Below are positions 14,221 through 61,200 of a DNA stretch of 64,000 nt, in pieces. The position numbers and the translations under genes are program-made. Source of the DNA: Heterodontus francisci (lineage: Eukaryota); the NCBI RefSeq assembly GCF_036365525.1, contig NC_090387.1, forward strand, positions 92,545,691 through 92,609,690, in the 5' to 3' direction. A model generated the notes under the pieces. That model searched no databases. It was not told the DNA's origin and saw nothing but the letters and a program-made list of their open reading frames with translations. How positions within the stretch are numbered: position 1 is the first letter of the stretch; the number at the start of each line of letters is the position of its first letter.

Positions 14221-14689
14221 AGTTTTAGTTTAGGCAGGCATCAAGATCGGCGCAGGCTTGGAGGGCCGAATGGCCTGTTCCTTTGCTGTACTGTTCTTTG
14301 CTCTTTGATATATCAGACACTAGTTGATATATATGAAAGTTCCTAAGAAGGTGGTGGCCTAGCAGAAAACTAGTTGATATCTAATGCTGTTTCCATTTTT
14401 AAAATATTTCATGGAAAGCCAGCATTTGTTGCCCACCCCTAATTATCCTTGAACTGAGAGGCTTTCTAGGCCATAAGAGTCAACCACAATACTGTGAAGA
14501 TTTCCTTCGCTAACGGACATTCGTGAATCAGATGGCTTTTTATGACAATAGCTTTTTTTTAATTAATGACATTTCAATCGCATGGTGGGCTGTGAACCCG
14601 CGTCCCGAATGACTATTTACACCTCTGAATTATAAGGGCTGCGACGTTACCATTACACCACCACGGCCCATAACACCACGAAAGGGAAA

Positions 14690-31556: not shown

Positions 31557-31970
31557 CCCGAAGGGTTTGTTTGATATGGGTAGGGAAGGGTCTGGCCCCG
31601 AGGGGTTTGTTTGATGTGGGTGCGGGAGGGTCTGGCGCCGAGGGGTTTGTTTGATGTGGGTGCGGGAGGGTCAGGCCCCGAGGGGTTTGTTTGATGTGGG
31701 TGGGGGAGGGTCTGGCCCCGAGGGGTTTGTTTGATGTGGGTGGGGGAGGGTCTGGCCCCGAGGGGTTTGTTTGATGTGGGTGCGGGAGGGTCAGGCCCCG
31801 AGGGGTTTGTTTGATGTGGGTGCGGGAGGGTCTGGCCCCGAGGGGTTTGTTTGATGTGGGTGCGGGAGGGTCTGGCCCCGAGGGGTTTGTTTGATGTGGG
31901 TGCGGGAGGGTCAGGCCCCGAGGGGTTTGTTTGATGTGGGTGCGGGAGGGTCTGGCCCCGAGGGGTTTGT
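31557..31970. repeat. 40-bp G-rich minisatellite, about 10 copies
   Basis: Unit CCCCGAGGGGTTTGTTTGATGTGGGTGCGGGAGGGTCTGG. Confidence 0.97.
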
Positions 31971-33287
31971 GGGCAGGTAAGAAGATAAGAAATAGGAGCA
32001 GAAGTAGGCCATTCAGCCCCTTGAGTCTGCTCCACCATCCAATAAGTTCATGGTTGATCTGATTGTGGCCTTAACACCACTTTTATACCTGCCCCCCCAC
32101 CCCCCCCCCCCCCCCCCACCTCATAACCCTTGACTCCCTTGTCAATCAAAAATCTGTCTAACTCAGCTTAGAATATATTCAATGACCAAATCTCCACTGT
32201 TTCTGGGTTGAGAATTCCAAAGATTCTGAGAGAATCCCCCTTAGTTTGAAACTATGCCCCCTAGTTCTAGATTCCCCAATGAGGGGAAACATCCTCTCTG
32301 CATCCACCCTTGTCAATCCCCCTTCAGAATCTTACATGTTTCCATCAGATCACCTCTCAGTCTTCTGAACTCTAATGCGAGTGTAGGCCCAACCTGCTCA
32401 ACCTTTCCTCATAAGATACCCCTTCATCCCAGGAATCAACCAATGAATATTCTCTGAACTGCTTCCAATGCATGTCTATCCCTCCTTAAATAAGGTGACC
32501 AAAGCTGTACACAGTACTCTAGGTGCAGTCTCACTAATGCCCTGTAAAGTTGTCGCAAGACTTCCCTACTTTTATACTCCATCCCCCTTGCAATAAATGC
32601 CAACATTCCATTTGTCTTCTAACAACTTGCTAACCTTTTGTGATTCATGTTCAAGGATACCCAGAACCCTCTATACCACAGCGTTCTGCAGTCTCTCTCC
32701 ACTTCAATCATATTCTGCTTTGCTATCCTTCCTGCCAAAGTGGATAACCTCACATTTTCCCACATTATACTACATCTGCTGAATTTTTGCCCTCTCACTT
32801 AACCTATTTATATCCCTCTGCAGATTATTTGTGTCAATTTACTCTCTCCCCTATCTTTGTATCGTCAGCAAATTTGGCTACAATGCACTCAGTCCCTTCA
32901 TCCAAGTCATTAATATAGATTGTAAATAGTTGAGGTCCCAGCACTGATCCCTGTAGCACTCCACTAGTCATTGTTTACCAACCAAAATGACCCATTTATC
33001 CCAACTCACTGTTTCCTGTTAATTAGCCAATCTTCTATCCACGCTAATATATTACCCCCAAAACCATGAGCTCTTATCTTGTGCAGTAACCTTTCATGTG
33101 GAGCCTTATTGAATGTCTTTTGTAAATCTAAGTACATTACATCTACTGGTTCCCCTACATCCACCCTGATTGTAACTGTTCTGGGATCACTTTAAGAGGC
33201 TGTAAGTGAAGGGTCACCGAAGGAAGTGTTGTCGCATCACACATGACCAGAGAGTTGAGGGTGTAGCCTGACAGAGTAAGATGTGTG

Positions 33288-36200
33288 CATGTCACCCTTT
33301 GGAATTGGAGATCTACCGTGGTTGTTGCTTTCCTGTTGGTTGGGGTTTTAGTGCCTGTCCCAGGAAAGCTTCAAGCACAAATGGGTGCAACCAACACCAG
33401 AACTCAAGGCCTGGGAGTGTGCAACACCATTAGCATGGAGGTGAAAGGTAGCGAAGGAGGTTCACCCATCAACTGTGCCTTCTTCATTCAGAAAATCCTG
33501 ATTAATTGCTGTGGATTCCAAGCTGCAGGTATCTTCTGCCTGCAGGACTTCCCCAGCAGTGGATATTTCGATGTGACATTCAAGAATGTGGCGGGATGCA
33601 TCAAGTTCCTGAAGGTATTCAAGGAAAGGGGAAACCAGGCGCCGCGTCGATCCTCACAGTGGAGCCACTCTTCACGCTGCCATTGCAACGTGACCGTGAC
33701 AATCCACCTCTACAACCCCCATGTTCCTGTCGTGGATGTACTCACCTTCCTTACCAGGTACATTGAGGTGGCCAGGAGCAGTACTGATGTCAAGGACCCA
33801 TTTGGGATTTGGACCAGCAAGCGGCAGGTCAAGGTGACCTTGAAAGTCGTTGCCAATGGAGCCATCATCCATTCTCCCTCCAGCTTCGTTATTGGGGGAA
33901 GTCAAGACTTCTTGGTCTACGCCGGGCAGCTCAGAGTTTGTCATACCTGAGGCAAATCGGGTCATGTGGCAGCGAACTGCAGCACATTCGTCTGCAAGAA
34001 CTGCAAGAAGGAAGGCCATCAGACCAAGGACTGTAAACAGAGTAAGTGCTGCAACCTGTGCAATGGGGCAGACCATCTCTACAAGACCTGCCCCAAACGC
34101 TGCCTCAGTTATGCACAGGCAGAAAAGTCCAAGGAAGGGCTGGAGGGAATGGTGAATGCACCTGGCGCTGCGAAGGAGACCAGTGACCCTCACCCCACCG
34201 AGCCCCTCAGCAAGGACCATCTGTCTAAGAAGGAGAGGAAATGGGAGAAAGCTGCAACAAGTGACCCAACACCTACCCCAAGCCCAGAAACTCCTCCACA
34301 ACACAAAGAATCCATAGAGGAGGAGGCAGCAGAGGGACAAACTGGTCAGTGGCAAGTGGTCAAAAGGAAAACCACAAAGAAGAAGCACCAAAAAAAGGAA
34401 CAGGCCACCACCCAAACCAGTGGCAAGAGGAGGCTACCGTCTGAGACAGACTACGGCAGCTGCTCCTCATCGGACGAGGAAGGACCAAAAGATGGTACAT
34501 GCAAAAGAAGCAACAGAACACAAAGGAGCTGGAAGGGAAAGTCCCCCAGCTCCATGGCACTGTAAGCAGTGATGGGCTCAGCGCACCCGAACCCCAAAGC
34601 ACTGAACCCAGTGAGATGCCCAGCGCACTCCAGCTCCGGGAGACTGACAGCAGCAAAGCATCCAGCGCACTTCAGCTCTGGGAAGCCAGGAGCAGAAATG
34701 TCCTCGAGGAGGAACAGAGGGAAAAGACACCACCAGCAGAGGACAGTCCAAACCTGCTAGACCACCACCCCCCCACCCCGATATCACCCCAGCGGAACAA
34801 AGCCCCCATGAGGACCAAGAGGGGTTTCTGAGCCCAACGTCTGTGCAACAGTTTGCAAACGCTATGGGTATGCAGGAAAAATGCCCAAGGAGTGGGACTA
34901 GTAAGGACACCTGGAGTGGTAAACAACATCCAGCTTTAAATGGGTAAAAAGATTGCTTCCATTAACGTGCGTAGCATTAAATCCACTACATGATGTGTTT
35001 CGACCTTGGATTACCTTGCCAAGGTCAAAGCCAACCTATTGTTTCTGCAGGAGTGTGGAAAACCACACCTCAGCACCTACAGACAATGGTCGCAATGGTG
35101 GTCCCACGGGCCATCGATCTGGTCAGGGGGTAATGATTGCCGTTCCTCCGGCCTGGGTATTCTGCTGCGGGGAGGTAACTTCACCATCTCCGAAGTTAAG
35201 GAGGTGGTGGGTGGTCGCCTCCTCGTAGTAGATGTAATGTACAGCAATGCTCCGCTCCGGTTGATCAACGTGTACGCCCCGGTACAACGCAGCGAGCGGC
35301 TGACCGTCTTCCAGCAGCTCCCACTGCTGCTGCCGACGTCCAGGCCGGTCATCCTAGGCGGTGACTTCAACTGCATCATCGATGCGGCTGGACGATCCGG
35401 CAGTGATGACAGCAAACTGGACGCTACGTCTAGATTCCTAACAGAAACAGTTAAAGATGCCAAACTGCACGATGTCTTCGGCAAACCTACAGGCGGACGC
35501 AGCGTAGATACACCTGGTCAGGAATCCTGCCCGTTCCAGGATTGACTTCCTGTTTGTGTCCTGTGTATTCACCGACATCACGCTGGTGTTCTTCTCCGAC
35601 CACTGCCTCCTACTGATTGATTGCCATTTGCAGGACGACCAGAAGGTTGGCAGGGGGACATGGAAGCTGAATGTTACACTGCTAACCCCAGAGAACATTG
35701 AGGAACTCAAAAGGGATTACAAAGATTGGAGAACCGTGAAACCCCTCTTTGAGTCTCCAGTTCACTGGTGAGAAGTGACCAAGGTGAACATCAAGAGGTT
35801 CTTTATCCTCAAAGGTGTTCAGAGGGCGAGAGAGAGACAGAGGGAAATGTCCCGACTCCAGAAAAAAATGCAGAATCTTCTCCAGCTGCAGTCGATGAGG
35901 GTCGAGGTCAAGGAGGACCTCCAAGTGGTCAAGGAGGATCTCCAAGAGGTGAAGAGCCAGCAGGCCGCGCTCTTTGCCATGGAGGCCTCCAAGATCATCT
36001 TCCGCTTCAGAGTCCGCTCCATTGAGCAGGATGAGACGTGCTCGCGTTACTTCTTCCAAAAGGTACACACAGAGAGCTGTGTGATCAGCAGCCTGAAGGA
36101 AGAGGTTGGCTCAGAAATGTCATTGCAGTCTGACATACTAAGGATCAGCAAATCTTTTTATGCTGGGCTGTACGACGTGAAGCCCACGGATAGCACAACC

Positions 36201-39200
36201 TCCCAGTCCTTCCTGTCACCTATCACGGAGGTCTTAGATGACAGCATGACGGAGAGACTGTTAAAATCCTGGGCGGGAGGTTTGCTAGAGCTCTTCGGGA
36301 GGGTTTAAACTAGTTTGGCAGGGGGATGGGAACCGGAGCTACGGATCAGTGGATGAGGTAGCTGTTGAACAGGCAGATACCGAGTGCAGAGAGTCTGTGA
36401 GGAAGGTTAGACAATTGACACGACAAAGTTGCAGCCAGTATGATGGGTTGAAGTGTGTCCATTTTAACGCAAGAAGTGTCAGGAATAAGGGTGATGAACT
36501 TACAGCATGGATCAGTACTTGGAGCTACGATATTGTGGCCATTACGGAGACGTGGATATCACAGGGGCAGGAATGGATGTTGGATGTTCCGGGATTTAGA
36601 TGTTTCAAAAGGAATAGGGAGGGAGGTAAAAGAGGTGGGGGAGTGGCATTGCTAATCAGGGATAGTATCACAGCTGCAGAAAGGGAGGTCGTTGAGGAGG
36701 GTTTGTCTACTGAGTCATTATGGGTGGAAGTCAGAAACGGGAAAGGAGCAGTCACTTTGTTGGGAGTTTTCTATAGAACCCCCAATAGCAACAGAGATAC
36801 GGAGGAACAGATTGGGAGGCAGATTTTGGAAAGGTGCAGAAGTAACAGGGTTGTTGTCATGGGTGACTTCAACTTCCCTAATATTGATTGGAACCTCCTT
36901 AGTGCAAATAGTTTGGAGGGAGCAGTTTTTGTCAGGTGTGTCCAGGAAGGGTTCCTGACTCAATATGTAGATAGGCCGACTAGAGGGGAGGCTATGTTGG
37001 ATTTGGTGCTTGGCACCAGGTGGCAGATCTCTCGGTGGGAGAGCATTTCGGTGTTTGTGATCACAACTCCTTAACCTTTACTATAGTCATGGAGAGGGAC
37101 AGGAGCAGACGGGATGGGAAAATATTTAATTGGGGGAGGGGGAATTACAATGCTATCAGGCAGGAACTGGGGAGCATAAACTGGGAACAGATGTTCTCAG
37201 GGAAATGCACGACAGAAATGTGGAGGTTGTTTAGGGAGCACTTGCTGCGACTGCTGGATAGGTTTGTCCCGATGAGGCAAGGAAGGGATGGTAGGGTGAA
37301 GGAACCTTGGATGACAAGAGATGTGGAACAGCTAGTCAAGAGGAAGAAGGAAGCTTACTTAAGGTTGAGGAAGCAAGAATCAGACAGGGCTCTAGAGGGT
37401 TACAAGGTAACCAGGAAGGAACTGAAGATTGGACGTAGGAGAGCTAGAAGGGGACATGAAAAAGTCTTGGCGGGTAGGATTAAGGAAAATCCCAAGGCGT
37501 TCTACACTTATTTGAGGAACAAGAGGATGGCCAGAGTAAGGGCAGGGCCGATCAGGGATAGTGGTGGGAACTTGTGCCTGGAGTCGGAGGAGGTAGGGGA
37601 GGTCCTAAATGAATACTTTGCTTCAGTATTCACTAGTGAGAGGAACCTGGTCGTTTGTGAGGACAGCGTGGAACAGGCTGATATGCTCGAACAGCTTGAG
37701 GTTAAGAGGGAGGATGTGCTGGAAATTTTGAATGATATGAGGACAGATAAGTCCCCGGGGCCAGACGGGATATACCCAAGGATATTACGGGAAGCGAGGG
37801 AAGAGATTGCTGCGCCTTTGGCGATGATCTTTGCGTCCTCACTGTCCACTGGAGTAGTACCGGATGATTGGAGGGTGGCAAATGTTATTCCCTTGTTCAA
37901 GAAAGGGATAACCCTGGGAATTATAGACCAGTCAGTCTTACAGGATTTATGATTATTTGGAAAAGCATGGCTTGATTAGAGACAGTCAGCATGGCTTTGT
38001 GAGGGGCAGGTCATGCCTCACAAGCCTTATTGAATTCTTTGAAGATGTGACAAAACACATTGATGAAGGAAGAGCAGTGGATGTGGTGTATATGGATTTT
38101 AGCAAGGTGTTTGATAAGGTTCCCCATGGTAGGCTCATTCAGAAAGTGAGGAGGCATGGGATACAGGGAAAGTTGGCTGTCTGGATACAAAATTGGCTGG
38201 CCCATAGAAGACAGAGGGTGGTAGTAGATGGAAAGTATTCAGCATGGAGCTTGGTGACCAGTGATGTTCCGCAGGGATCTGTTCTGGGACCTCTGCTCTT
38301 TGTGATTTTTATAAATGACTTGGATGAGGAAGTGGAAGGCTGGGTTAGCAAGTTTGCCGATGACACGAAGGTTGCTGGAGTTGTGGATAGTGTGGAAGGC
38401 TGTTGGAGGTTGCAACGGGACATTGACAGGATGAAAAGCTGGACTGAGAAGTGGCAGATGGAGTTCAACCTGGAAAAGTGTGAAGTGATTCATTTTGGAA
38501 GGTCGAATATGAATGCAGAATACAGGCTTAAAGACAGGATTCTTGGTAGTGTGGAGGAACAGAGGGATCTTGGAGTACATGTCCATAGATCGCTCAAAGT
38601 TGCCACCCAAGTTGATAAGGTTGTTAAGAAGGCGTATGGTGTGTTGGCTTTCATGAAAAGGGGGATTGAGTTTAAGAGCCGCGAGGTTATGCTGCAGCTC
38701 CATAAAGCCCTGGTTAGACCACACTTGGAATATTGTGTTCAGTTCTGGTCGCCTCATTATAGGAAGGATGTGGAAGCTTTAGAGAGGGTGCAGAGGAGAT
38801 TTACCAGGATGCTGCCTGGACTGGAGATAAAGAAAGATTGAGGGAGCTAGGGCTTTTCTCATTGGAGTGAAGAAGGATGAGAGGTGACTTGATAGAGGGG
38901 TACAAGATGATGAGAGGCATAGATAGAGTGGATAGCCAGAGACTTTTTCCCAGGGCGGAAAGGGCTATCACCAGGGGGCATAATTTTAAGGTGATTGGAG
39001 GAAGGTTTCGGGGAGATGTCAGAGGTAGTTTCTTTACACAGAGAGTGGTGGGTGCGTGGAATGCGCTGCCAGCGGTAGTAGTAGAAGCAGATACATTAGG
39101 GACATTTAAGCGACTCTTGGATAGGTACATGGATGATAGTAGAATGAAGGGAATGTAGGTAGTTTGATCTTAGAGTAGGTTAAAGGTTTGGCACAACATT

Positions 39201-42845: not shown

Positions 42846-44989
42846 GCATCATATTCTAATTTCTCCCCTTTTTTAAGTCATCCTTTGCTGATTTCTAAAA
42901 TGTTTCCAATCTTCTGGCCTACCACTAACCTTTGCAGCATTGTATGCCTTTACTTTCAATTTGCTACCATCCTTAACTCCCTTAGTTAGCCACAGATGAT
43001 GCATCCTTCTTGTACAGGATTTCTTTCTCAATTATATATATTTTTGTTGAGAGTTATGAAATATCTCCTTAAATGTCTGACACTGTTTATCTATCATGTT
43101 ACCTTTTAACCTATTTCCCCAGTCCACTATAGCCAACTATGTCTTCATACCTTTGTAGTTGCCTTTATTTAAGTTTAAGACTCATATTTCAGACCGAAAG
43201 TTTTCACCCTCAAATTGAATGCGAAATTCTATCATCTTATGATCACTCTTGCCTAGAGGATCCTTTACTATGCGATTATTAATTAATCCTGTCTCATTGC
43301 ACATTACCAGGTCTAAAATAGCCTGTTCCCAGGTTGGTTTCAAAATATATTGTTCTAAGAAACTGACCCAAATGCACTCTATGAACTCATCCTCAAGGCT
43401 ACCTTTGCCAATTTGATTTGTCAAATTGAAATGACGATTAAAATTGCCCACAATTATTGCAATACCATTCTTACAAGCCCCTGTTATTTCTTGATTTATA
43501 CTCTGTCCTACAGTCTGGCTACTGTTAGATGGCCTAAACGGTGACTTCTTCGCCTTGCTAATTCTTATCTCCACCCAAACTAATTCTACATCTTGATCTT
43601 CCAAGCCAAGCTAATTTCTCACGACTGTACTGATCTCATACTTTATCAACAGAGCTACCCCACATCCTTTTCCTTTCTTCCTATCCTTCCAAAATGTTAA
43701 AGTACCCTTGAATATTCATTTCCCCGCCTTGGTCACCTTGCAACCATGTCTCTGTAATGGCTATCATATCATACCCGTTTATTTTGATTTGTGCTATCAA
43801 TTCATCCATCATGTTACGAATGCTGCTTGCATTCAGATAAAGAGCCTTTAATTCTTTTTACTATTTTCCCTATCCTGACCTTATTTTCCATTGCACTCTT
43901 ATGTTTGTATGCTCTGGCTCTTCCTGTCACACTCTGGTTATCATTACCCGTACTGCTACCCTGCACTATTGCCTTGACCTTTCTCGTTAACTTTCTAAAT
44001 CTTCCCTCACATGAACCCTCCGCCCCACTATTTAGTTTAAACCCTCTCTACAGCTCCAGTTATATGATTTGCCAGGAAACTGGTCCCAGTGCAGTTCAAA
44101 TGCAGCCTGTCCCAATGGAACAGTTCTCCCATTCCCCAGTACTCGTGCCCCATGAACTGAAACTCATTTCACCCACACCAATCTTTGAGCCACACATTCA
44201 ACTCTCTGATCTTATTTACCTCTGTCAATTTGCTCATGGTTCCAGTTGTAATCCAGAGATTATTAGCCCATAGCTGGTCCTACTCCCTGAACAGAACCTC
44301 ATTATTAGTCCTACCTATATCGTTGATACTTATGTGGACCGAAACAACTGGATCCTTCCCCTCCCACTCCAAATTCCTCTCCAGCCCTGAGGAGATGTCC
44401 TTAACCCTGGCACCAGGCAGGCAACACAGCCTTCAGGACTCAAGCTCTCAGCAGCAGAGAATGGTATCTTTCCCCCAAAACAAGAAATGGTTTAAGAAAA
44501 ATGTCAGACTTAATTTCCCCAGTGTCTGATATCAAATCTTAACAATGTGTATCGTTGGGCTATGTGTTCCCCCAATACTTTTAACCAGTGATTATTGTTA
44601 ATAATGAGTAATAAAGGGCGTGAAGTTTAATAATAAGGAGTGCAATATATCAGAAATAAATAGTATGATGGGAGTAATAAAGATAAATGAGTAACAAATG
44701 ATGTCATGTGAATAACAAGCAATACTATTGTCATATGTGCAATGAGGAATGTGATATGAGCAACAAAGATTCTACTGACATCACAGTCTTATTACTCTGA
44801 GTGTGGCCTAGGAATCCCACAGGAACCCTCTCGATCTCCAGCCATACCTTCAGTGGTAGACCGGGAGTCCCAGTTACAGTGGGAACAGCAGTTTATTACA
44901 TTTTTTCCTGGGCGTTTGGCAGTATTTCTCTGAAGCAGAATGCCCATGAATTTTTAGGACCTATTTGTCCATGTGTACCAAGGTTCTGA

Positions 44990-45287
44990 GGATTGCTACA
45001 CATCCCCACCCCATGGATATCAGCGAAAAGCTCAGCCAAAGCCACTTTATGGTCTGAGGCTGTTTCTGAGCTGTGCAACGTGCTGGATTCTAACCGACAG
45101 ATACATTCCACCACAGGCAATGCACTGCCATCGACAGTCAAGGTCAGGTCAGCCTTGTACCTTATGCTTCCAGCTGATTCCAAGCTTCAGCTGCAGCATT
45201 GGCCAATCTGCTGTCCAAAGATGTGTCAAGCTGCTGACTGATGTGGGTGTCAGAGATAGAAATCTCATCACATTCCTTATGGGCTAA
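44990..45287 (+). mobile_element. Degraded PIF/Harbinger transposase fragment
   Basis: Frameshifted EAVSELCNVL..NALPSTVKVRSAL..IGQSAVQRCVKLLTD..ITFLM resembles the N-terminal HTH region of Harbinger/HARBI1 transposases. Confidence 0.55.
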
Positions 45288-45491
45288 TCTTCAAAAACAG
45301 GAGAGGGCACTGCACTTTTTCCACCTCCTCTCTCAGAACCTTATTGGCCTCTTTCCCTTCCCTTCTCCATCCTGGTCCCAACCCTGGGACGGCCCTTCCC
45401 ACCCCCTCCAGCCCTGACCCCAGATTGGCCTCTCCTGCCCTCTCTGGTCCTGACACCCAATTGGCCTCTAATGCTGACTCCGGTCCTGACT

Positions 45492-47195
45492 TAAGAACAT
45501 AAGAAATAGGAGCTGCAGTAGGCCATTAGGCTCCTTGAGCCTGCTCTGCCATTCAATAAAATCATGGCTGATCTGATTGTGGCCTGAACTCCACTTTCCT
45601 GCCTGCTCCCATAATGCTAGGCTCCCTTGTCTATCAAAAATCTGTCTAACTCAGCCTTGAATGTATTCAATGACCCAGCCTCCACCTTTCACTGGGGAAG
45701 AGAATTTCATAAATTAACAACTCTCTGAGAGAAGAAATTTCTCCTCATCTCTGACTTAAATAGGAGACCCCTTATTTTGAAACTGTGTCCCCCAGTTCTA
45801 GATTCACCCATGAGGAGAAACATCCTCTCAGCATCTACCTTGTCAAGCCCGCTCAGAATCTTTTATGTTTCAATAAGATCGCCTCTCAATCTTCTAAACT
45901 CCAATGTGTATCGGCCCAACCTGCTCAACATTTCTTCATAAGACAACACTTCATCCCAAGAGTTAGCCTAGTGAACCTTCTCTGAATTGCTTCCAATGCA
46001 AGTATATCGTTCCTTAAGTTAGGTGACCAAAACTGGACACAGTACTCTGGGTGCAGTCTCACCAATGCCATGTACAGTTTTAGCAAGACTTCCCTAATTT
46101 TATACTCCATCTCTCTTGCAATAAAGGCCAACATTCCATTTGCTTTCCTTATTACTTGCTGTACCTGCATTTTATGTTTTGTGATTCATGTACAAGGACA
46201 CCTGGATCCCTCTGTACCGCAGCATTCTGCAGACTCTCTTCATATAAATAATATTCTTCTTTTCTATTCTTCCTACCAAAGTGGATAATCTCACACTTTT
46301 CCACATTATGCTCCATCTGCCAAATTTTTGCCCACTCATTTAACCTATCTTTATCACTTGGCAGACACTTTGTGTCCTTCTCACGACTTGCTTTCCTACC
46401 TATCATTGTATCGTCCGCAAATCTAGCTACAATACACTTGGTCCCTTCATCCAAGTTAATAATATAGATAGTAAATAGTTGAGGCCCCAGCACTGATCCC
46501 TGTGGCACTCCACTAATTACAATTTGCCAACCTGCAAATGCTCCATTTATCCTGACTCTCTGCTTCCTGTTAGTTAGTCAATCCTCTATCCATCCTAATA
46601 TTACACCCCCAACACCATGAGTTCGTACCTTATGTAGTAATCTTTTATGTTGCATCTTTTGGAAATCCCAAGTATACTACAACTACTGTTTCCCCTTTAC
46701 ATTCTCAAAGAACTCTAATAAATTTGTCAAACATGATTTCCCTTGTTAAAACAATGTTGACTCTGCCTGATTGCAACATACGCAAACGAACATATGAATT
46801 GGGAGTGGGGGTGGGCCACTCGGCCCCTCAGGCCTACTCCACCATTCAATATGATCATGGCTGATCTAATTGTAACCTTGACTCCACATTCACGCCGACC
46901 CCCAATAACCTTTCACCCCCTTAATTATCGAGACCTATCTACCTCTGCCTTAAAGATGTTTGGGGACTCTGCTGCCACTGCCTTTTGAAGAAGAGATTCT
47001 GATGATTCGCAACCCTCTGAGAGAACAGATTTCTCCTCGTCTCTGTCTTAAACAATGACCCCTGGTTCTGGATTCTCCCACAAGAGGAAGCATCCTTTCC
47101 GCATCCATCCTGTCGAGACCCCTCAGGATCTTATATGTTTCAATCAAGTCGCCTCTTACTCTTCTAATTACCAGCAGATACAAGCCTAGCCTGTC
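45492..47195 (-). mobile_element. Two consecutive CR1 fragments (45492-46775 and 46780-47195)
   Basis: ORFs with [13 protein letters not shown] and RGDLIETYKIL; two separate 3' ends. Confidence 0.9.
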
Positions 47196-47375
47196 CAAAA
47201 CTCCACAAAGATGTGGTAGTGTACTGCAGGAGTTGCCACATGTGCCAGATTGAGGGTAAATCCTAACCTACAGTGAAACCTACAACCCTAAGTCGTGTAC
47301 CAGTGTTAGGAGGACCCTCCAGCAGAGGGCTGGTGAACTGTAAGGGAACCCCACCAAGAACAAAAGGGGACAGAC
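47195..47375 (+). mobile_element. Gypsy integrase fragment
   Basis: PKLHKDVVVYCRSCHMCQIEGK..PVLGGPSSRGLVNCKGTPPRTKG matches the integrase zinc-binding CxxC and the start of the core domain. Confidence 0.65.
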
Positions 47376-47529
47376 AGGCACAAGGCTGGCAAAAGCTTAG
47401 ACAGGGAAGGGGAAAAAGTGACCAAGAAGCCAGGTTAAAGGAAGTCCGGGAGGAATCCTGGATGAAAATTCCTACTGTCTGGTCAGCCAACCCAGAATAA
47501 TTTGAGAAGTTAGACCCCACATCCTCAAA

Positions 47530-48640
47530 AAGCTGGGGGCAATGTGAGCTGTGAGGAGGATGCAAAGAGGCTCCAATGTGATTTGGACAAGTTGGGTGAG
47601 TAGGCAAATGCAAGGCAGATGCAGTAAAACGTGGATACATGTGAGGTTATCCACTTTGGTTGTAAAAACAGAAAGGCACATTATTATCTGAATGGTGATA
47701 GATTGGGAAAGGGGGAGGTGCAACGAGACCTGGGTGTCCTTGTACGCAAGTTGCTGAAAGCAAGCATTCAGGTGCAGCAAGCAGTTAGGAAGGCGAATGA
47801 TATGTTGGCCTTCATTGCAAGAGGGTTTGAGTACAGGAGTAGGGATGTCTTACTGCAGTTGTGCAGGGCCTTGGTGGGACCACGTCTGGAGTGTTGTGTG
47901 CAGTTTTGGTCTCCTTGTGTGAGGAAGGATGTTCTTGCCTTGGGGGGAGTGCAAAGAAGATTTGCTGGTCTGATTCCTGGGATGGCAGGATTGACATATG
48001 AGGAGAGATTGGGTCGACTATTGGGTCACCTGTATTCACTGGAGTTTAGAAGAGTGAGAGGGGATCTCATAGAAACCTATGGGATTCTGACAGGACTGGA
48101 CAGGCTGGATGCGGGAAAGATGTTCCCGATGGCTGGGAATTCATAACCAGGGGTCACGGTCTCAGGATACGGGGTATGCCATTTGGTACCGAGATGGGGA
48201 GGGATTTCTTCACTCAGAGGGTGGTGAAGCTGTGGAATTCTCTGCCGCGGAAGGCGGTGGAGGCCAAGTCATTAAATGTATTCAGGAAGGAGATAGATAT
48301 ATTTCTTAATGCCAGGGGGATCAAGGGATATGGGGAGAAAGTGGGAACAGGGTACTGAATTGGATGATCAGCCATGATATTTTTTGAGTGGCGGAGTGGG
48401 CCCGGGGGGCCGGGGGGCCGGGTGGCCTGCTCCTGATCCTATTTTCTATGTTTCTATGTCCAACCTTTCTTCATCAGACAACCCGCCCATTCCAGGTGTT
48501 AGTGTAGTGAACCTTCTCTGAACTGTTTCCAACACATTTACATCCTTCCTTAGATGGAGGGACCGATGCTGTATGTAGTGCTCCAGATGTGGTCTCACCA
48601 GTGCCCTGTATGACTGAAACATAACTTCCCTACTTTTGTA
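47530..48640 (+). mobile_element. CR1 3' part (+, to 48459) and adjacent antisense CR1 fragment (48460-48640), both A-to-G hypermutated
   Basis: ORF 47631-48146 differs from its in-window relatives mostly by A-to-G codon changes. Confidence 0.88.
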
Positions 48641-49815
48641 TTGATGAAGGAAGGGCAGTGGATGTTGTCTATATGGACTTCAGTAAAGCCTTTGACAAGG
48701 TCCCTCATGGCAGACTGGTACAAAAGGTGAAGTCACACGGGATCAGAGGTGAGCTGGCAAGATGGATACAGAACTGGCTCAGTCATAGAAGACAGAGAGT
48801 AGCAGTGGAAGGGTGCTTTTCTAAATGGAGGGATGTGACTAGTGGTGTTCCGCAGGGATCAGTGTTGGGACCTTTGCTCTTTGTAGCATATATAAATGAT
48901 TTGGAGGAAAATGTAGCTGGTCTGATTAGTAAGTTTGCGGACGACACAAAGGTTGGTGGAGTTGCAGATAGTGATGAGGATTGTCAGAGGATACAGCAGG
49001 ATATAGATCGGTTGGCGACTTGGGCGGAGAAATGGCAGATGGAGTTTAATCCGGACAAATGTGAGGTAATGCATTTTGGAAGATCTAATACAGATGGGAA
49101 GTATACAGTAAATGGCAGAACCCTTAGGAGTATTGACAGGCAGAGAGATCTGGGCGTACAGGTCCACAGATCACTGAAAGTGGCAACACATGTGGATAAG
49201 ATAGTCAAGCAGGCATACGGCATGCTTGCCTTCATCGGTCGGGGCATAGAGTATAAAAATTGGCAAGTCATGCTGCAGCTGTACAGAACTTTAGTTAGGC
49301 CACACTTAGAATATTGTGTGCAATTCTGGTCGCCACACTACCAGAAGGACGTGGAGGCTTTGGAGAGGGTACAGAAGAGGTTTACCAGGATGTTGCCTGG
49401 TCTGGAGGGTATTAACTATGAGGAGAGGTTGGATAAACATGGATTGTTTTCACTGGAACGACGGAGGTGGAGGGGCGACATGATAGAGGTTTACAAAGTT
49501 ATGAGCAGCATGAACAGAGTGGATAGTCAGAAGCTTTTTCCCAGGGTGGAAGGGCAAAGTTTAGAGGGGATGTGCGAGGCAAGTTCTTTACACAGAGGGT
49601 GGTGAGTGCCCGGAACCTGCTGCCGGGGGAGGTGGTGGAAGCAGGTTTGATAGCGTCGTTTAAGAGGCATCTTGACAAATACATGAATAGGATGGGAATA
49701 GAGGGATACGGACCCCGGAAGTGCAGAAGGTGTTAGTTTAGGCAGGCATCAAGATCGGCGCAGGCTTGGAGGGCCAAATGGCCTGTTCCTGTGCTGTACT
49801 GTTCTTTGTTCTTTG
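48641..49815 (+). mobile_element. Young CR1 LINE, 5'-truncated
   Basis: 315-aa open RT ORF 48658-49605; (TGTTCTT)n tail. Confidence 0.95.
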
Positions 49816-50129
49816 TTCATACTGTCTCCTTCTACTATTACATTCCTTTTGATTTCCCCACTTGAATGGCCCCCTACACCATGGTGCTGTGATCAGTTTG
49901 CTCTTTCTCCCTGCAGCCCTTGCTCTCGACAACATAGGCTTCAAGAACCTCAAACCTGTTGGACAATTGCAAGGGTTGAGGCTCCCCCTGTGCTACCTTC
50001 TAGATCTGCAAACCTGCCTCAATCATAATCACACCCTCCCGTCACTGAGCACACACCAAATCAGAAATACCTAACCTAAGAGGTGTGACTGCCTCCTGGA
50101 ACAAAGTGTCCAGGTAACTTTCTCCCTCC

Positions 50130-53100
50130 CTATAGATTGGGAAAGGCAGAAGGGTGCATGGCAGGAAGGTAGTGAATTTCCTGAGTGTGTTCAGGATAGC
50201 TTTCTGCAACAATATGTCCTAGACCCAACAAGTGGTCAGGCCCTATTAGATTTAATAATGGGTAATGAGCCCGACATAGTTAACATAAAATCATAACATA
50301 TTAGAACAGTTACAGCAAGAAGGAGGCCATTTGGCCTGTCATTTCCATGCTAGTTCTCTACGAGACCATCTTAGCTACCTTTTCACCACAGTCCTGCAAA
50401 TTCTTTCTCTTCTGATAATTATCCAATTCCCTTTTAAAATTCCTGATTAAATCTGTCTCCATTTCACCCTCAGACAGTGTATTCCAGATCATAATCACAC
50501 ACTGCGTAAAATAAATTTCCTCGTGTTGCCTCTGCTTCTTTTGCCAATCACTTTAAATCAGTATCCTCTGGTTCTCGACTCTTCCACCAATGGAAACAGT
50601 TTCTCCCTATCTACTCTGTCAGACCCCTCATGATTTTGAACACCTCTATCAAATCTCCTCTCAACCGTCTCTTATCTAAGGAGAACAGCCCCAGCTTCTC
50701 CAATCTATCCACATAACTGAAGTCCCTCATCCTTGGAACCATTCTTGTAAATCTTTTCTGCACATTCTCTAAAGCCTTCATATCCTCCCTAAAGTGCGGT
50801 ACCCAGAATTGGACACAATACTCCAGTTGAGGCTGAACAAGTGTTTATAAAGGTTCACCATAATTTCTTCGCTTTTGTACTCTATGCCTTTATTTATAAA
50901 GCCCAGGATCCCGTACGCATATTCACCTTTCTCAACCTGCCCTGCCACCTTCAGTGATTTGTACACATAAAGCCATAGGACCCTCTGCTCCTGCACCCCC
51001 TTTAGAATTGTGTTTTTTAATTTATATTTCTTAATTAATCCACATCTGTCCAAGTGACTGTTAATTTTGCCCCAGATTATCATTTCTAAAAGCTATCCCA
51101 ATACCAGGATTAAACTGACCAGCCTGTAGTTGCTGGGCTTGTCACAGAATCATAAAAAGTTTACGGCACAGAAAGAGCCCACTTCGCCCATCGTGTCTGT
51201 GCCAGTCGAAAAACGATCCACCTATTCTAATCCCACCTTCCAGCATTTGGTCCTTAGACCTGCAGATTACAGCACTTGAGGTGCATATCCAGATGTCTTT
51301 TCAATGAGTTGAGGGTCTCTACCTCAACTATCCTTTCAGGCAGTGAGTTCCAGACCATCACCACCCTTTGGGTGAAAAAGCTTTTTCTCATCTCCCCTCT
51401 ATTCTTTCTACCCATCACTTTAAATCTATGCCCCCTTGTCACTGACCTCTCTGCTAAGGTGAATAGACCCTTCACCTCCACTCTATCCAGGCCCCTCACA
51501 ATTTTGTACATTTCAATCAGATCTACCCTCAGCCTTCTCTGTTCCAAGGAGAACAACCCCAGCCTATCCAATCTTTCCTCATTGCTGCATTTTTCCAGTC
51601 CTAGCAACATCCTCGTAAATCTCCTCTGTACCCTCTCTAGTGCAATTACTTCCTTTCTGTAATGAGGTGACCAGAGGTACTGAAGTTGTGGCCTAACCAA
51701 TGAGTTATGCAGCTCCAGCATAAGCTCCCTGCTCTTATATTCTACAGCTCAGTTAATAAAGGAAAGGATTCCATATGCCTTCTTAACCACCTTATCAACC
51801 TGTCCTGCTACCTTCAGGAATCTGTGGACATTCACTCAAAGGTCCCTCATTTCCTCTACACTTCTCAGTATTTTCCCATTAATCGAGTATTCTTTTGCCT
51901 TGTTTGACCTCCTCAAATGCATCACCTCACACTTCTCCAAGTTGAGTTCCATTTGTCACTTTTCTGCCCAACTTACCAGACCATCAATATCTTCCTGCAG
52001 CCTACAGCTATCCTCCTCGCTATCTACCACATGGCCAATCTTTGTGTCATTTGCAAACTTCTTAATCATGCCCCCTACATTTACATCCAAATCATTAATA
52101 TATACCACGAAGAGCAGGGGACTCAGTACTGAGCCCTGTGGAACGCTACTGGAAACAGCCCTCCAGTCGCAAAAACACCCGTCAACAATTACCCTTTGTT
52201 TCCTGCCACTGAGCCAATTTTGTATCCACCTTGCTGCATTTCCCTGGATCCCATGGGCTATCATTTTTTTTTAACCAGTCTGCCATTGGGACCATGTCCT
52301 TGCACTGTTTTTTAAACAGGAGTGTAACATTTGCAATTCTGCAGTCCACTGGTAGCACCCCTGTATCGAAGGAGGATTGGAAGGTTATGACCGGTGCATC
52401 CACAATTTCCACCTTTACTTCCCTCAATATCCTTGTATAATTAACAGCCTAATGGTGCATGAACATGTATCTAATAGAAATTATATGAGTGAGTGAGTTC
52501 AATGTTGTGTTTGACAGCGAGAAATGCAAAAGGCCACTAAGGTTTTCGATTTAGGTAAGGCTGACTTCAATGGGATGAGACAGGGACTATACGCAGTGAA
52601 TTGTGCAATCTGTTAATGGGTAAAAAGACAGAAGATCTGTGAGACACATTCAAAAAGGAATTTAATGTGATAAGGAACGAGTTTATATCCGTTCTACTTG
52701 CCAAAAAAGAGCCAGGGACATCTGACGAGATGAGGGACAACAAAAAGCCAAAAGAAAAAACATAAAAGAATGTACAAAAAACACAGATCCTGGAAAATGG
52801 AAGAGATACAAAGAATAGCAAAGTTTAACAAAACCAATAGTAAGAGTATAAAAAAGGAGTATAAAAAGAATCTTGCAAGGGATATCAAAATCAACACCAA
52901 AGACTATTACAATTATAAGAGGAAAAAGAAGGTGGTCAGGAACAATGTGGATCACTTTAAAAGTGATAGTTGTATGATTATAAATGAAAATAAGGAGATG
53001 GTGGACATGGTGAATAATTACTTTACGTCAGTACTTACAGTAAAGGAAGATTATAGCATGCTGTATGTTCCAAGGAAACTAATATTAAATCAGAGGTGGA

Positions 53101-53713: not shown

Positions 53714-55453
53714 CAGAACAAGAACAAAGAACAAAGAACAGTACAGCACAGGAACAGGCCATTTAGCCCTCCAAGCCTGTGCCAATCTTGATGCCTGCCT
53801 AAACTAAAACCTTCTGCACTTCCGGGGCCCATATCCCTCTATTCCCATCCTATTCATGTATTTGTCAAGATGCCTCTTAAACGTCTCGATGGTACCTGCT
53901 TCCACCATCTCCCCCGGCAACAAGTTCCAGGCACTCACCACCCTCTGTGTAAAGAACTTGCCTCGCACATCCCCTCTAAACTTTGCCCCTCTCACCTTAA
54001 ACCTATGTCCCCTAGTAACTGACTCTTCCACCCTGGGAAAAAGCTTCTGACTATCCACTCTGTCCATGCCGCTTATAACTTTGTAAACCTCTATCATGTC
54101 GCCCCTCCACCTCTGTCGTTCCAGTGAAAACAATCTGAGTTTTTCCAACCTCTCCTCATAGCTAATGCCCTCCAGACCAGGCAACATCCTGGTAAACCTC
54201 TTCTGCACCCTCTCCAAAGTCTCCACGTCCTTCTGGCAGTGTGGCGACCAGAATTGCACACAATATTCTAAGTGTGGCCTAACTAAAGTTCTGTACAGCT
54301 GCAGCATGACTTGCCAATTTTTATACTCTATGCCCCGACCGATGAAGGCAAGCATGCCGTATGCCTTCTTTACTTATCCACCTGCGTTGCCACTTTCAGT
54401 GACCTGTGGACCTGTACGCCCAGATCTCTCTGCCTGTCAATACTCCTAAGGGTTCTGCCATTTACTGTATACTTCCCACCTGCTTTAGACCTTCCAAAAT
54501 GCATTACCTCACATTTGTCTGGATTAAACTCCATCTGCCATTTCTCCGCCCAAGTCTCCAACCGATCTATATCCTGCTGTATCCTTTGACAATCCTCATC
54601 ACCGTCCGCAACTCCACCAACCTTTGTGTCGTCTGCAAACTTACTACATTTTCCTCCAGATCATTTATATATACTACAAAGAGCAAAGGTCCCAGCACTG
54701 ATCCCTGCGGAACACCACTAGTCACATCCCTCCATTCAGAAAAGCACCCTTCCACTGCTACCCTCTGTCTTCGATGACCGAGCCAGTTCTGTATCCATCT
54801 TGCCAGCTCTCCTCTGATCCCATGGGACTTCACCTTTTGTACCAGTCTGCCATGAGGGACCTTGTCAAAGGCTTTACTGAAGTCCATATAGATAACATCC
54901 ACCGCCCTTCCTTCATCAATCATCTTCACCATTTCCTCAAAAAACTCAATCAAATTAGTGAAACACGACCTCCCCTTCACAAAACCATGCTGCCTCTTGC
55001 TAATAAGTCCATTTGTTTCCAAATGGGAGTAAATCCTGTCCCGAAGAATCCTCTCTAATAATTTCCCTACCACTGATGTAAGGCTCACCAGCCTATAATT
55101 TCCTGGATTATCCTTGCTACCCTTCTTAAACAAAGGAACAACATTGGCTATTCTCCAGTCCTCTGGGACCTCACCTATAGCCAACGAGGATGCAAAGATT
55201 TCTGTTAAGGCCCCAGCAATTTCTTGCCTTGCTTCCCTCAGTATTCTAGGGTAGATCCCATCAGGCCCTGGGGACTTATCTACCTTAATGCTTTGCAAGA
55301 CACCCAACACCTCCTCCTTTTTGATAATGAGATGACTGAGACTATCTACACTCCCTTCCCTAGGCTCATCATCCACCAAGTGGATTCCTTGGTGAATACT
55401 GATGCAAAGTATTCATTTAGTACCTCGCCCATTTCCTCTGGCTCCACACACAG
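53714..55453 (-). mobile_element. Young CR1 LINE, 5'-truncated
   Basis: ORFs 53804-55379 carry RT motifs; nearly identical to 12622-14220. Confidence 0.95.
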
Positions 55454-58244: not shown

Positions 58245-61200
58245 ATGAGAATATAGGAACATAGAAGCAGGAGTAGGCCATTCAGCCTGTCAAGCCTGTT
58301 CCGCCATTCAATTAGATCATGGCTCATCATCTACCTCAACGCCACTTTCCCGCGCTATCCCCATATCCCTTGATGTCATTAGTATCCAGATATCCATCGA
58401 TTTCTGTCTTGGACATGCTCAATGATTGAGCTTCCACAGCCCTCTGGGGTAAAGAATTCCAAAGATTCACCACCCTCTGAGTAAAGAAATTCCTCCTCAT
58501 CTAAGTTTTAAATGGCCTGCCTCTTATTCTGAGACTATGTCCCCTGGTTCTAGACTCCCAGCCAGAGGAAACATCCTATCCACATCTACTCTGTCATGCC
58601 CTGTAGAATTTTGTAAGTTTCAATGAGATCACCTCTCATTCTTCGAAACTCTCGAGAATACAGGCCCAGTTTCTGAAATCTCTCCTCATAAGACAATCCC
58701 GCCATCCCAGGGATTAGTCTGGTGAACCTCCGTTGCACTCCCTCTGTGGCAATGATATCCTTCCTTAGATAAGGAGACGAAAACTGTACACAATACTCCA
58801 GGTGCGGTCTCACCAAGGCTCTATACAATTGGAGCAAGACATCTTTACTGCTGTACTCAAATCCCCTTACAATGAAGGCCAACATATCATTTGCCTTCTT
58901 AATTGCTTGCTGCACCTGCATACTAACCTTTAGTGAATCATGAACAAGAACACCCAGGTCCATTTCCACATCAACACTTCTCAATCTCTCACCATTTACA
59001 AAATACTCTTCCTGTTTTTTCTACCAAAGTGGACAACTTCACACTTAATCACATTATGTTCCATCTGCCATGTTCTTGCCCATTCACGAAGCTTGTCCAA
59101 GCCTCCTTGAAGCCTCCTTGGATCCTCCTCACAACTTACATTCTCACCTACCTTTTTGTCATCAGTAAATTTGGAAATATTACAATTGGTGCCCAAATCC
59201 ATTTATATACCGATCCTTGCGGTACCCCACTAGTAACAGCCTGCCATCCTGAGAATGGCTAGTTTATTCTTTTGTTTTCTTTTGTATTCTTTTGTATTCT
59301 TATTGTTTTCTGTCTGTTAACCAGTTTGCAATCCATAGCAGTATATTACCCCCAATCCCATGTACTCTAATTATGTTTACTAGCCTCCTGTGTGGGACCT
59401 TAGTAAAAGCCTTCTGAAAATCCAAATACACAGAATCACAGAATCACAAAATTGTTCCAGCGCAGAAGGAGGCCATTCAGCCCATCATGTCCACACTGCC
59501 TCTCTGAAGAAGCAACTCCCTCAGTTCCATTCCCCTGCCTTCTCCCCATAACCCTGCACATTCTTCCTTTTCATATAACTGTCTAATTCCCTTTTGAATG
59601 CTTTAATTGAACCTGCCTCCACCACGTTCTCAGGCAGCACATTCCAGACTTTAACTACTCTCTGTGTGTAAAAAGTTTTTCCTCATGTCACTTTTGCTTC
59701 TCTTACCAAATACCTTAAATCTGTGCCCTCTCGTTCTCGATCCTTTCACGAGTGGGAACAGTTTCTCTCTATTCACTCTGTCCAGACCCCTCATGATTTT
59801 GAATACCTCTATCAAATCACCTCTCAGCCTTCTCTTCTCCAAGGAAAACAGTCCTAACTTCTCCAATCTATCTTCATAACTGAAATTCCTCATTCCTGGA
59901 ACCATTCTCGTGAATCTTTTCTGTACTCTCTCCAATGCCCTCATGTCTTTCCTAACGTGCGGCGCCCAGAATTGGTCTCAATACTGCAGCTGAGACCGAA
60001 CTAGCATCTTACACAAGTTCAACATAACTTACTTGCTCTTATACTCTATGCCCCTATTAATAAAGCCCAGGACACTGTATGCTTTATTAACTGCTCTCTC
60101 AACCTGTCCTGCCACTTTCAATGACTTATGCACATATACACCTCGGTCCCTCTGCTCCTGCATCCCCTTTAGAATTGTACCCTTTATTCTATATTGTCTC
60201 TCCATGTTCTTCCTACCAAAATGAATCACTTCACATTTCTCTGCATTGAATGTCATCTGTCACCTGACTGCCTGTTCCACCAACTTGTCTATATCCTTTT
60301 GAAGTTCTACACTATCCTCCTCACAGTTCACAATGCTTCCAAGTTTTGCATCATCTGCAAACCTTGAAATTGTGCCCTGTACACCAAGGTCCTATGTCAT
60401 TAATATATATCAAAAAAAACAAGGGTCCTAACACTGATCCCTGGGGAACTCCACTACAAACCTTCTTCCAGCCCAAAAAACATCCATTAACCACTACGCT
60501 TTGTTTCCTGTCACTCAGCAAATTTCGTGTCCATGTTGTTACCGTCCCTTTTATTCCATGAGCTACAAGTTTGCTCACAAGTCTGTTGTGTGGCACTGTA
60601 CCAAATGCCTTTTGATAGTCCATGTTCACCACATCAACAGCATTGCCCTCATCAACACTCTCTATTACCTCCTCAAAAAACTCTAGCAAGTTAGTTCAAC
60701 ATGATTTTCCCTTAAGAAATCCATGCTGGCTTTATTTAGTTAACCCACATTTGTCCATGTGACTATTGATTTTGTCCTAAATTATTATTTCTAGAAGTTT
60801 TCCCACCACCGAATTAAACTGACTGGCCTGTATTTTCTGGGCTTATCTTTACACCCTTTTTTGAACAAGGGTGTAACGTTTTCAATTCTCCAGTCCTCTG
60901 GCACCACCCCAGAGTCTAAGGAAGACTGAAAAATTATGGCCAGTGCCTCTGCGATTTCCACCCTCACTTCTCTCAGTATCCTTGGATGCATCTCATCTGG
61001 TCTTGGTGGTTTATCCACTTTAAGTACAGACAGCTTATCTAATATTACTCTCTATCAATTTTAAAACCCTCTGATGTCTGACTTACCTCTTCTTTCAACA
61101 TTGTCTGGGTTGCATCTTCTTCCTTGGTATGCAAAGTATCCATTTAATACCTCAGCTGTGCCCTCTGCTTCCATGTATAAATCCTCTTTCTGATCCCTAA

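What the first reader, a model, noticed from the sequence alone, without database searches (positions are those of the whole stretch)
47740..48640. Strand-specific A-to-G hypermutation in genomic CR1 DNA: possible fossil of ADAR hyper-editing
Seen: versus the related copy at 58586-58984, ORF 47631-48146 shows QLY>QLC, VRPH>VGPR, LEY>LEC, SPY>SPC, EG>GG, FTR>FAG, RRM>RRV and TYK>TYG, all involving A-to-G changes. The 3' UTR is likewise G-flooded (ggcccggggggccggggggccgggtggcctgctcc). The adjacent ANTISENSE fragment (48460-48640) also shows A-to-G on the same plus strand (ttaaataaggagaccaa becomes ttagatggagggaccga), while the neighbouring young CR1 is unaffected. Known: ADAR hyper-edits long dsRNA formed by inverted repeats, and inosine is copied as G. 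Inference: an edited inverted-repeat transcript was written back into the genome. Alternatives are a local strand-biased mutational process or an assembly/polishing artefact.
Basis: partly seen in the sequence, partly recalled or inferred. Interest (0 to 1): 0.7.

Follow-up and report, generated by a model that had tools for sequence, protein, structure and literature searches.

The report
ADAR-edited RNA copied back into genome
A 1.9-kb stretch of shark-type repeat DNA carries a one-strand excess of A-to-G changes across an inverted repeat and lies inside a 5.3-kb block that splits one older element and ends in a retrotransposon tail, likely because an RNA edited by the enzyme ADAR was reverse-transcribed into the germline, which would make it a DNA fossil of RNA editing.

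Summary
Plus-strand A>G runs from 46807 to 48612 over a sense CR1 (Q) and both halves of an antisense CR1 (B) that flank it: 50 of 197 A versus 13 of 193 T>C (p=4e-7). Against family contigs of three organisms it is 64-74 A>G versus 11-24 T>C places. A DNA contig matches 46898-47084 exactly, and CA>TG double changes suggest CpG decay after the event, so an artefact is unlikely. New here: 44483-49817 is one 5.3-kb block inserted into a CR1 ORF1 whose two halves join codon for codon. The block holds decayed repeats and ends in a younger plus-strand CR1 3' end, the anatomy of a CR1-primed retrocopy of a long transcript. Best reading (0.72): ADAR hyper-edited a fold-back in that transcript and CR1 reverse transcriptase wrote it into the germline. 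Weak points: the unedited source locus was not found; an equally good pairing partner (c45) is unedited; the 5'-G depletion depends on the reference set; only 5 of 50 sites are covered by a shown exact contig. ADAR marks in proviruses and LINE chimeras are known separately; nine literature searches did not show the combination.

The parts
44043..44482 (-). Downstream half of a CR1 ORF1 (esterase-like) that forms the left flank of the insertion
   Evidence: tblastn to P0124 residues 158-312 at 44474-44043; the two codons 44480-44475 fill residues 156-157; relatives carry PF13472
44483..45491 (.). 5' part of the inserted block: AT-rich stretch, then decayed sequence that looks Harbinger-like by eye
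   Evidence: No other copy in the window; Pfam scan of three frames of 44783-45330 negative; the Harbinger label is recalled; editing not testable
45492..46776 (-). Decayed antisense CR1 (c45), inside the block, not A>G-enriched
   Evidence: A>G 11 of 203, T>C 18 of 239
46777..47198 (-). B1: 3' half and tail of an antisense CR1; plus-strand A>G enriched; left arm of the fold-back
   Evidence: 13 of 61 vs 7 of 67; 298 base pairs with Q 48041-48459 in the predicted fold; exact DNA contig 46898-47084
47199..47525 (+). Gypsy-type LTR-retrotransposon fragment fused 5' of Q; loop of the fold-back, apparently spared
   Evidence: Integrase_H2C2 E=4.8e-5, 23.8 bits, below the 25.5 cut-off; repeated in organism A; 0 of 7 listed differences there are window-G/family-A, with 249 rows not shown
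47526..48459 (+). Q: sense CR1 3' end (RT C-terminus, 3' UTR, tail); A>G enriched in its 3' two thirds
   Evidence: 47832-48459: 30 of 104 A>G vs 5 of 94 T>C; 47526-47831: 8 of 58 vs 3 of 38; change point 47675, range 47665-47836
48460..48642 (-). B2: upstream continuation of B1; plus-strand A>G enriched; can pair with Q 47832-48012
   Evidence: 7 of 32 vs 1 of 32; family contigs join 47191 to 48457 with 7 nt fitting either side
48640..49817 (+). y48: younger 5'-truncated sense CR1 with microsatellite tail; 3' end of the block; unedited
   Evidence: RVT_1 E=1.8e-23, no stop in 312 codons; 91-92% identical to copies at 12622-13834 and 53722-54920, which continue upstream where y48 stops; 3-nt overlap with B2
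49818..50131 (-). Upstream half of the same CR1 ORF1, right flank of the insertion
   Evidence: tblastn to P0124 residues 53-142 and 137-155; 2-nt overlap with the left flank end 44481-44482

Best explanation
The stretch 46777-48640 carries a plus-strand A>G excess across an inverted pair of CR1 fragments and lies in a 5.3-kb block (44483-49817) that splits one CR1 ORF1 and ends in a CR1 3' tail; it is likely a retrocopy of a long plus-strand transcript that ADAR had likely hyper-edited and that CR1 reverse transcriptase likely inserted in the germline. Steps: (1, shown as anatomy) a sense CR1 with a Gypsy-type piece sits inside an antisense CR1, making an inverted repeat. (2, inferred) At an unseen source locus this nest was transcribed on the plus strand, Q paired with B1 and B2 at about 74-77% Watson-Crick identity, and ADAR converted roughly a sixth to a fifth of the A to inosine (25% seen, 7-9% background). 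(3, inferred) CR1 reverse transcriptase primed on the y48 3' tail, either because y48 ended the same read-through RNA (5' transduction) or by switching template at the 3-nt overlap at 48640, and copied inosine as G. (4, shown as anatomy) The product lies in an intact target site with a 2-nt overlap. (5, inferred) New CpGs then decayed in methylated germline DNA. The block is most likely non-functional; its value is as a record.
For: Strand and class: 50 of 197 A>G vs 13 of 193 T>C, 7 A>C, 6 T>G; 15 control copies give 218 of 2353 A>G and 138 of 1914 T>C in element sense. The bias follows the plus strand in elements of both orientations, so it is not a CR1-sense property. Family contigs of organisms A, B, D: 74/11, 73/11, 64/12, 74/24 A>G vs T>C places (p 2e-11 to 4e-6 on approximate denominators). 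Real DNA: one 187-nt contig of run X1, depth 6, 0 differences, covers 5 of the 50 sites. CA>TG 5 of 35 with TG>CA 0 of 36, vs 31 of 916 in controls (p=0.008); 4 of 40 vs 19 of 810 with the six-copy reference (p=0.019). Context with the six-copy reference: after G 6 of 46 changed, after other bases 37 of 108 (p=0.010); before G 19 of 48, the ADAR motif as stated in PMC4365171 and PMC3197674. Fold-back: B1 pairs with Q 3' in the predicted fold; y48 pairs with B or c45 at only 59-61% and is unedited. Split target: P0124 residues 53-155 right of the block, 158-312 left, two codons between. The edited strand is the strand of y48, the one that would be the RNA.
Against: The unedited source locus and its RNA were not found (no genome held). 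c45 lies in the block and pairs with Q as well as B does (75-76% vs 74-77%) yet is unedited. B1-Q and B2-Q pairings cross each other and the predicted fold forms only the first, so two conformers are needed. 5'-G depletion was not significant in two of three reference choices (p=0.45; p=0.12 and 0.010). The edit boundary in Q (47675, range 47665-47836) is not sharply tied to the end of B2's partner region (47832). B1's asymmetry disappears with the six-copy reference (13 of 68 vs 13 of 87). A>G is only 50 of 139 differences from the distant majority. Exact DNA support is shown only for B1; the run is typed 'DNA?' and may be the sample the window was assembled from. No shown contig spans the outer junctions, which lay outside the stretch laid.
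Confidence: 0.72

Rival explanations
1. A DNA-level or copying-level process made the A>G tract: error-prone second-strand synthesis during retrotransposition (G opposite T when dATP is low), deamination of one DNA strand in an RNA:DNA hybrid, or extreme transcription-linked strand bias.
For: The tract is one nearly contiguous 1.9-kb interval; c45, an equally good RNA partner, is spared; neighbour preference is reference-dependent.
Against: y48 and c45 belong to the same block and are unedited; the loop (Gypsy piece, Q 47526-47675: 2 of 30) appears spared; runs such as the three adjacent changes at 48081-48083 and the 3' UTR cluster resemble hyper-editing.
Confidence: 0.11
2. The block arrived or was built in place first, and an edited cDNA of its own transcript later overwrote 46777-48640 by homologous recombination.
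For: It would explain why only 1.9 of the 5.3 kb is changed and why c45 is spared.
Against: Needs two rare events at one locus; the last called site (48612) lies 28 nt from the y48 junction; decayed repeats cannot be nested later inside a block whose end is a younger CR1 tail at an intact target.
Confidence: 0.08
3. Assembly or polishing artefact, for example hyper-edited RNA reads used in the consensus.
For: Exact DNA support is shown for only 5 of 50 called sites, from one contig of a run that may be the assembly's own sample.
Against: That contig has 0 differences over 187 nt; four runs of organism A hold 29-30% of the sampled words; CA>TG double changes are not made by reading inosine.
Confidence: 0.04
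4. Ordinary divergence of small G-rich CR1 subfamilies, or GC-biased conversion, seen against distant references.
For: Window references are only 58-74% identical; 17 of 58 called sites in the Q-B alignments face a C, which may be shared subfamily G.
Against: Family A at about 97-99.7% of depth at listed sites in organism A; same plus-strand direction in opposite-orientation elements; no T>C, A>C or T>G excess; changes destroy conserved residues.
Confidence: 0.05

Closest known systems
ADAR-type A-to-G clusters in integrated retroviral proviruses (BLV 3' LTR U3, PMC8025556, passages read; HTLV-2/STLV-3 cited there)
   Same: Clustered one-strand A>G in chromosomal DNA, ascribed to ADAR acting on an RNA that was then reverse-transcribed.
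   Different: Those are somatic copies of a virus's own RNA, about 70 nt with 7 or more changes; here the template would be a host transcript of dead repeats, the copier a non-LTR element, the tract 1.9 kb and apparently germline and old.
Hyper-/ultra-edited RNAs from inverted repeats (PMC3197674, PMC4365171; passages read)
   Same: Dense A>G in nearby inverted repeats, G depleted upstream and enriched downstream (partly met here).
   Different: Those are RNA-only differences from the genome; here the Gs are in the DNA and the unedited template was not seen.
LINE-1 chimeric insertions and 5' transductions (bioRxiv 10.1101/2025.02.02.635956, passages read)
   Same: Foreign RNA sequence fused 5' of a LINE in one insertion, mostly in the same sense.
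   Different: L1 with 12-13-nt target duplications and exonic cargo; the text has 0 occurrences of 'editing', 'ADAR' or 'CR1'. Here CR1, a 2-nt overlap, 4.2 kb of unspliced-looking repeat cargo bearing A>G.
APOBEC-edited LTR retrotransposons fixed in vertebrate genomes (PMC4866542, passages read)
   Same: Deaminase hypermutation preserved as a genomic fossil through reverse transcription.
   Different: G>A from C>U on cDNA of LTR elements; here A>G, on the RNA-sense strand, in non-LTR material.
Retroprocessing of edited mRNAs in plant mitochondria and kinetoplastids (recalled, no call)
   Same: Edited RNA sequence written back into a genome.
   Different: C>U or U-indel editing of organelle genes, replacing the gene; not ADAR, not a nuclear repeat transcript.

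Membership tests
ADAR hyper-edited sequence | Dense cluster of A>G (>=12 sites, >=20% of A; PMC3197674) | tested here: met
   50 of 197 A, of which 7-9% is background against distant copies
ADAR hyper-edited sequence | One strand only, no matching T>C | tested here: met
   50 vs 13; 74 vs 11 places in run X1
ADAR hyper-edited sequence | A>G is >90% of all mismatches to the source DNA | not testable with these tools
   Source not found; against family references it is 50 of 139 and 74 of 189 places, as expected for old copies
ADAR hyper-edited sequence | G depleted 5' and enriched 3' of edited A | tested here: inconclusive
   5' G: p=0.45, 0.12 and 0.010; 3' G highest or joint highest (0.39-0.40), not tested for significance
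ADAR hyper-edited sequence | Lies in a long fold-back duplex; unpaired parts spared | tested here: inconclusive
   B1-Q duplex predicted, loop apparently spared, but c45 spared although it could pair
ADAR hyper-edited sequence | Inosine or matching edits in RNA of the source locus; dependence on ADAR | not testable with these tools
   No source locus; no RNA run among the holders (asked for DNA)
LINE-mediated chimeric insertion / 5' transduction | LINE 3' end and tail at the 3' end of the insert | tested here: met
   y48 tail ends at 49817-49818
LINE-mediated chimeric insertion / 5' transduction | One target site, collinear on both sides | tested here: met
   P0124 155 | 156-157 | 158 in register
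LINE-mediated chimeric insertion / 5' transduction | Target-site duplication | tested here: inconclusive
   Only a 2-nt overlap; short or absent duplications for CR1 are recalled, not from a call
LINE-mediated chimeric insertion / 5' transduction | Source locus of the 5' cargo elsewhere; empty site in relatives | not testable with these tools
   No genome held; contigs shown are 114-404 nt
CR1 non-LTR retrotransposon (Q, B, c45, y48) | CR1-type RT and microsatellite 3' tail | tested here: met
RVT_1 in y48; Q is 60-79% identical to chondrichthyan-labelled and unnamed RT-like proteins; tails seen.
APOBEC-edited retroelement | G>A clusters on the element sense strand | tested here: not met
   G>A 15 of 144, at control level

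The most novel reading that the evidence does not exclude
CR1 reverse transcriptase copies long, ADAR-hyper-edited host transcripts into the germline of cartilaginous fishes as a recurrent route, so their repeat-rich genomes hold a datable fossil record of germline A-to-I editing and RNA edits become heritable DNA mutations without any virus.
Probability: 0.4. Interest if true: 0.85.

Novelty: new variant of a known kind. Interest (0 to 1): 0.72.

Why it matters
ADAR edits are normally lost with the RNA; heritable copies are documented mainly for retroviral proviruses, and ADAR1 restriction of L1 was reported as editing-independent with no edits found in 2.5 kb of L1 RNA (PMC5224506, passages). 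A germline, non-viral case shows that inosine-rich duplex RNA can reach and be copied by a LINE enzyme. It gives a simple genome-wide screen (one-strand A>G in inverted repeats inside LINE-tailed blocks) that would measure how often RNA edits flow into DNA, date ADAR activity and preferences in extinct germlines, and test whether CR1, thought to favour its own 3' end (recalled), moves kilobases of host sequence.

Tried and rejected
Own genome: not held. DNA relatives: metagenome scan gave 80 loci of at most 56% amino-acid identity, from 4 of 64 parts, too distant and not used; viral and prokaryote scans gave none. A long target duplication around y48 alone: none above 8 nt, chance level; B does not resume after y48, which rejected a plain insertion of y48 into B at this locus. 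Window-wide scan for other tracts: none at p<0.01 besides 48001-48500 among 58 bins; B1 was mostly uncalled in that scan, and its CA>TG count was only 2 of 27 vs 8 of 709. Protein-level test on B2, B1 and controls was weak (4 of 15, 1 of 4; the script failed on its last item, y48). Pfam found nothing for Q's ORF, the ORF1 half or the Harbinger-like stretch. Runs with 8-12% word share (organisms B-F) are no evidence of the locus; X5 and X16 served only as family references. No unedited source contig was recognisable among the 32 pieces shown of 226,121. Earlier-findings look-ups by words and by genome gave nothing on this locus. PMC5199112 has no mention of editing. Considered and rejected: APOBEC (wrong class), GC-biased conversion (not symmetric), pairing with antisense RNA from other copies (would not spare the loop; not excluded).

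Full report
Setting. The window is dense in CR1-like fragments; best named protein relatives are from Callorhinchus, Chiloscyllium and Hemitrygon, so the host is inferred to be a cartilaginous fish. No whole genome is held.

Is the A>G excess real? I aligned 18 CR1 3' regions of the window and scored each against the majority of the others. On the plus strand, B1 (46770-47198) has A>G 13 of 61 and T>C 7 of 67; Q 47832-48045 9 of 35 and 1 of 39; Q 48046-48459 21 of 69 and 4 of 55; B2 (48460-48640) 7 of 32 and 1 of 32; together 50 of 197 vs 13 of 193 (Fisher p=4e-7), with A>C 7 and T>G 6. The 15 control copies give 218 of 2353 (9%) A>G and 138 of 1914 (7%) T>C in element sense, none above 14%. 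Q 47526-47831 was kept out of that total: 8 of 58 vs 3 of 38 (p=0.034 against the rest of Q). The segment limits were chosen after seeing the alignments, so the p values are somewhat optimistic; the unselected test is, where contigs at >=80% likeness were laid on all of 46700-48700: places where the window has G and the family A number 74, 73, 64 and 74 in runs X1, X2 (organism A, one sample), X5 (B) and X16 (D), against 11, 11, 12 and 24 places with window C and family T. At listed sites such as 47893, 47917, 47944 and 48081-48083 about 97-99.7% of organism A depth reads A; only 40 of 289 rows were shown. At protein level 8 of 12 departures from conserved residues in 47787-48083 are A>G-only, 0 of 8 upstream (86 proteins). 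B1 is the weakest part: with a six-copy reference it gives 13 of 68 vs 13 of 87.

Is it in DNA? Run X1 has a 187-nt contig, depth 6, identical to 46898-47084; it covers 5 of the called sites. The run is typed 'DNA?' and may be the assembly's own sample, and no exact contig over Q or B2 was among the 32 pieces shown. Independently, majority CA has become TG in 5 of 35 cases in the tract with TG>CA 0 of 36, against 31 of 916 either way in controls (p=0.008; 4 of 40 vs 19 of 810, p=0.019, second reference). CA>CG>TG is what methyl-CpG decay would do after the change entered DNA (established knowledge, inference here). Counts are small.

Anatomy of the tract. B1 and B2 are halves of one antisense CR1: family contigs join 47191 to 48457 with 7 nt fitting both sides (7, 9 and 3 contigs in X1, X2, X16). 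Between them sits an insert made of a Gypsy-type fragment (47199-47525; Integrase_H2C2 E=4.8e-5, below cut-off) fused to the sense CR1 Q. So a plus-strand RNA holds an inverted repeat: Q 48029-48458 faces B1 and Q 47832-48012 faces B2, at 71% and 66% Watson-Crick now, 77% and 74% if called sites are counted as A. The predicted fold of 46770-48640 has 298 B1-Q pairs and none of the B2-Q mid helix, which crosses it. The change point in Q is 47675 (2 of 30 before, 56 of 166 after; range 47665-47836).

Anatomy of the block. y48 (48640-49817) is a younger sense CR1, 91-92% identical to two other window copies that continue upstream where it stops, with a 3-nt overlap to B2. B does not resume after its tail. 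Instead the right flank is the upstream half of an antisense CR1 ORF1, matching P0124 residues 53-155, and the matching downstream half, residues 158-312, lies at 44474-44043, with exactly two codons (44480-44475) for residues 156-157 and a 2-nt overlap; the last right-flank segment alone is a weak hit (E=1.5) but adjoins a strong one (E=4e-17). Thus 44483-49817 occupies one intact target site. It holds decayed material (an unassigned kilobase, c45, B, Q) and ends in a less decayed CR1 tail (3.2% private changes). Step-by-step nesting in place would need y48's 3' end to fall on the old boundary to within 2 nt; copying of a long transcript primed at the y48 tail explains it in one step, and predicts that the RNA was the plus strand, the strand on which A>G is seen. 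This paragraph's anatomy is shown; the retrocopy is inferred.

ADAR signature. PMC4365171 and PMC3197674 give G depleted 5' and enriched 3' (passages). With observed neighbours 5' T 19 of 43, A 14 of 44, G 11 of 49, C 6 of 45 (G vs rest p=0.45). With majority neighbours and all copies G 10 of 44 vs 33 of 91 (p=0.12); with six nearer copies 6 of 46, equal to the control rate, vs 37 of 108 (p=0.010); 3' G 18 of 46 and 19 of 48. The trend is in ADAR's direction but is not settled.

What does not fit. c45 is in the block, can pair with Q at 75-76% and is unedited (11 of 203 vs 18 of 239). Possible reasons, all untested: B is nearer; more than one RNA was joined; or only part of the locus was overwritten by a cDNA (rival 2). 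Whether y48 was part of the same RNA or joined by template switch is open: a boundary in Q at 47832 would favour the first, one at 47675 the second.

Comparison with what is known. A>G clusters ascribed to ADAR occur in BLV proviral LTRs (PMC8025556, passages). L1 forms 5' chimeras and transductions (10.1101/2025.02.02.635956, passages). APOBEC G>A fossils are common in LTR elements (PMC4866542, passages; its one mention of A-to-G was not among the passages shown). ADAR1 did not edit L1 RNA in culture (PMC5224506, passages). PMC2873906 was seen as abstract only; PMC5199112 returned no hits. Nine full-text searches of open PMC and bioRxiv (listings and abstract starts only) showed no report of an ADAR-hyper-edited host transcript retrocopied into a germline by a LINE. 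Subscription papers are not covered and no supplements were opened; those of the genome-wide editing screens could hold A>G cases. An earlier AI note in another genome (e1-8036428) describes A>G hyper-editing in one LTR of an endogenous provirus; it is unchecked and is not support.

Verdict. Observation confirmed and extended; best explanation 0.72; new variant of a known kind; interest 0.72.

Noticed in passing
window 47192-48459: The insert inside B is itself a fusion of a Gypsy-type fragment and a CR1 3' end within one 5-7-nt duplication, a second apparent CR1 chimera in the same block.
   Followed up: partly
window 44800-45330: Decayed sequence that resembles a Harbinger transposase by eye; Pfam negative.
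   Followed up: partly
window 37501-38500: Mild plus-strand A>G excess in another sense CR1 (14 of 78 vs 4 of 61, p=0.07; 11 of 92 vs 6 of 90); may be subfamily divergence.
   Followed up: partly
window 30620-31190 and 31560-31975: Two GC-rich minisatellites, periods about 27 and 40 nt by eye.
   Followed up: no
window 33240-36260: A non-LTR element of another kind (cysteine-knuckle ORF, endonuclease-like ORF; Tx1-like by eye) cut off by a CR1.
   Followed up: no
window 32091-32119: A run of about 25 C inserted in CR1 copy c32, absent from related copies.
   Followed up: no
window 14212-14310 and 12622-13834: A short CR1 3' end in the opposite orientation about 380 nt from a close young copy, another possible fold-back; no A>G excess in those bins.
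   Followed up: partly
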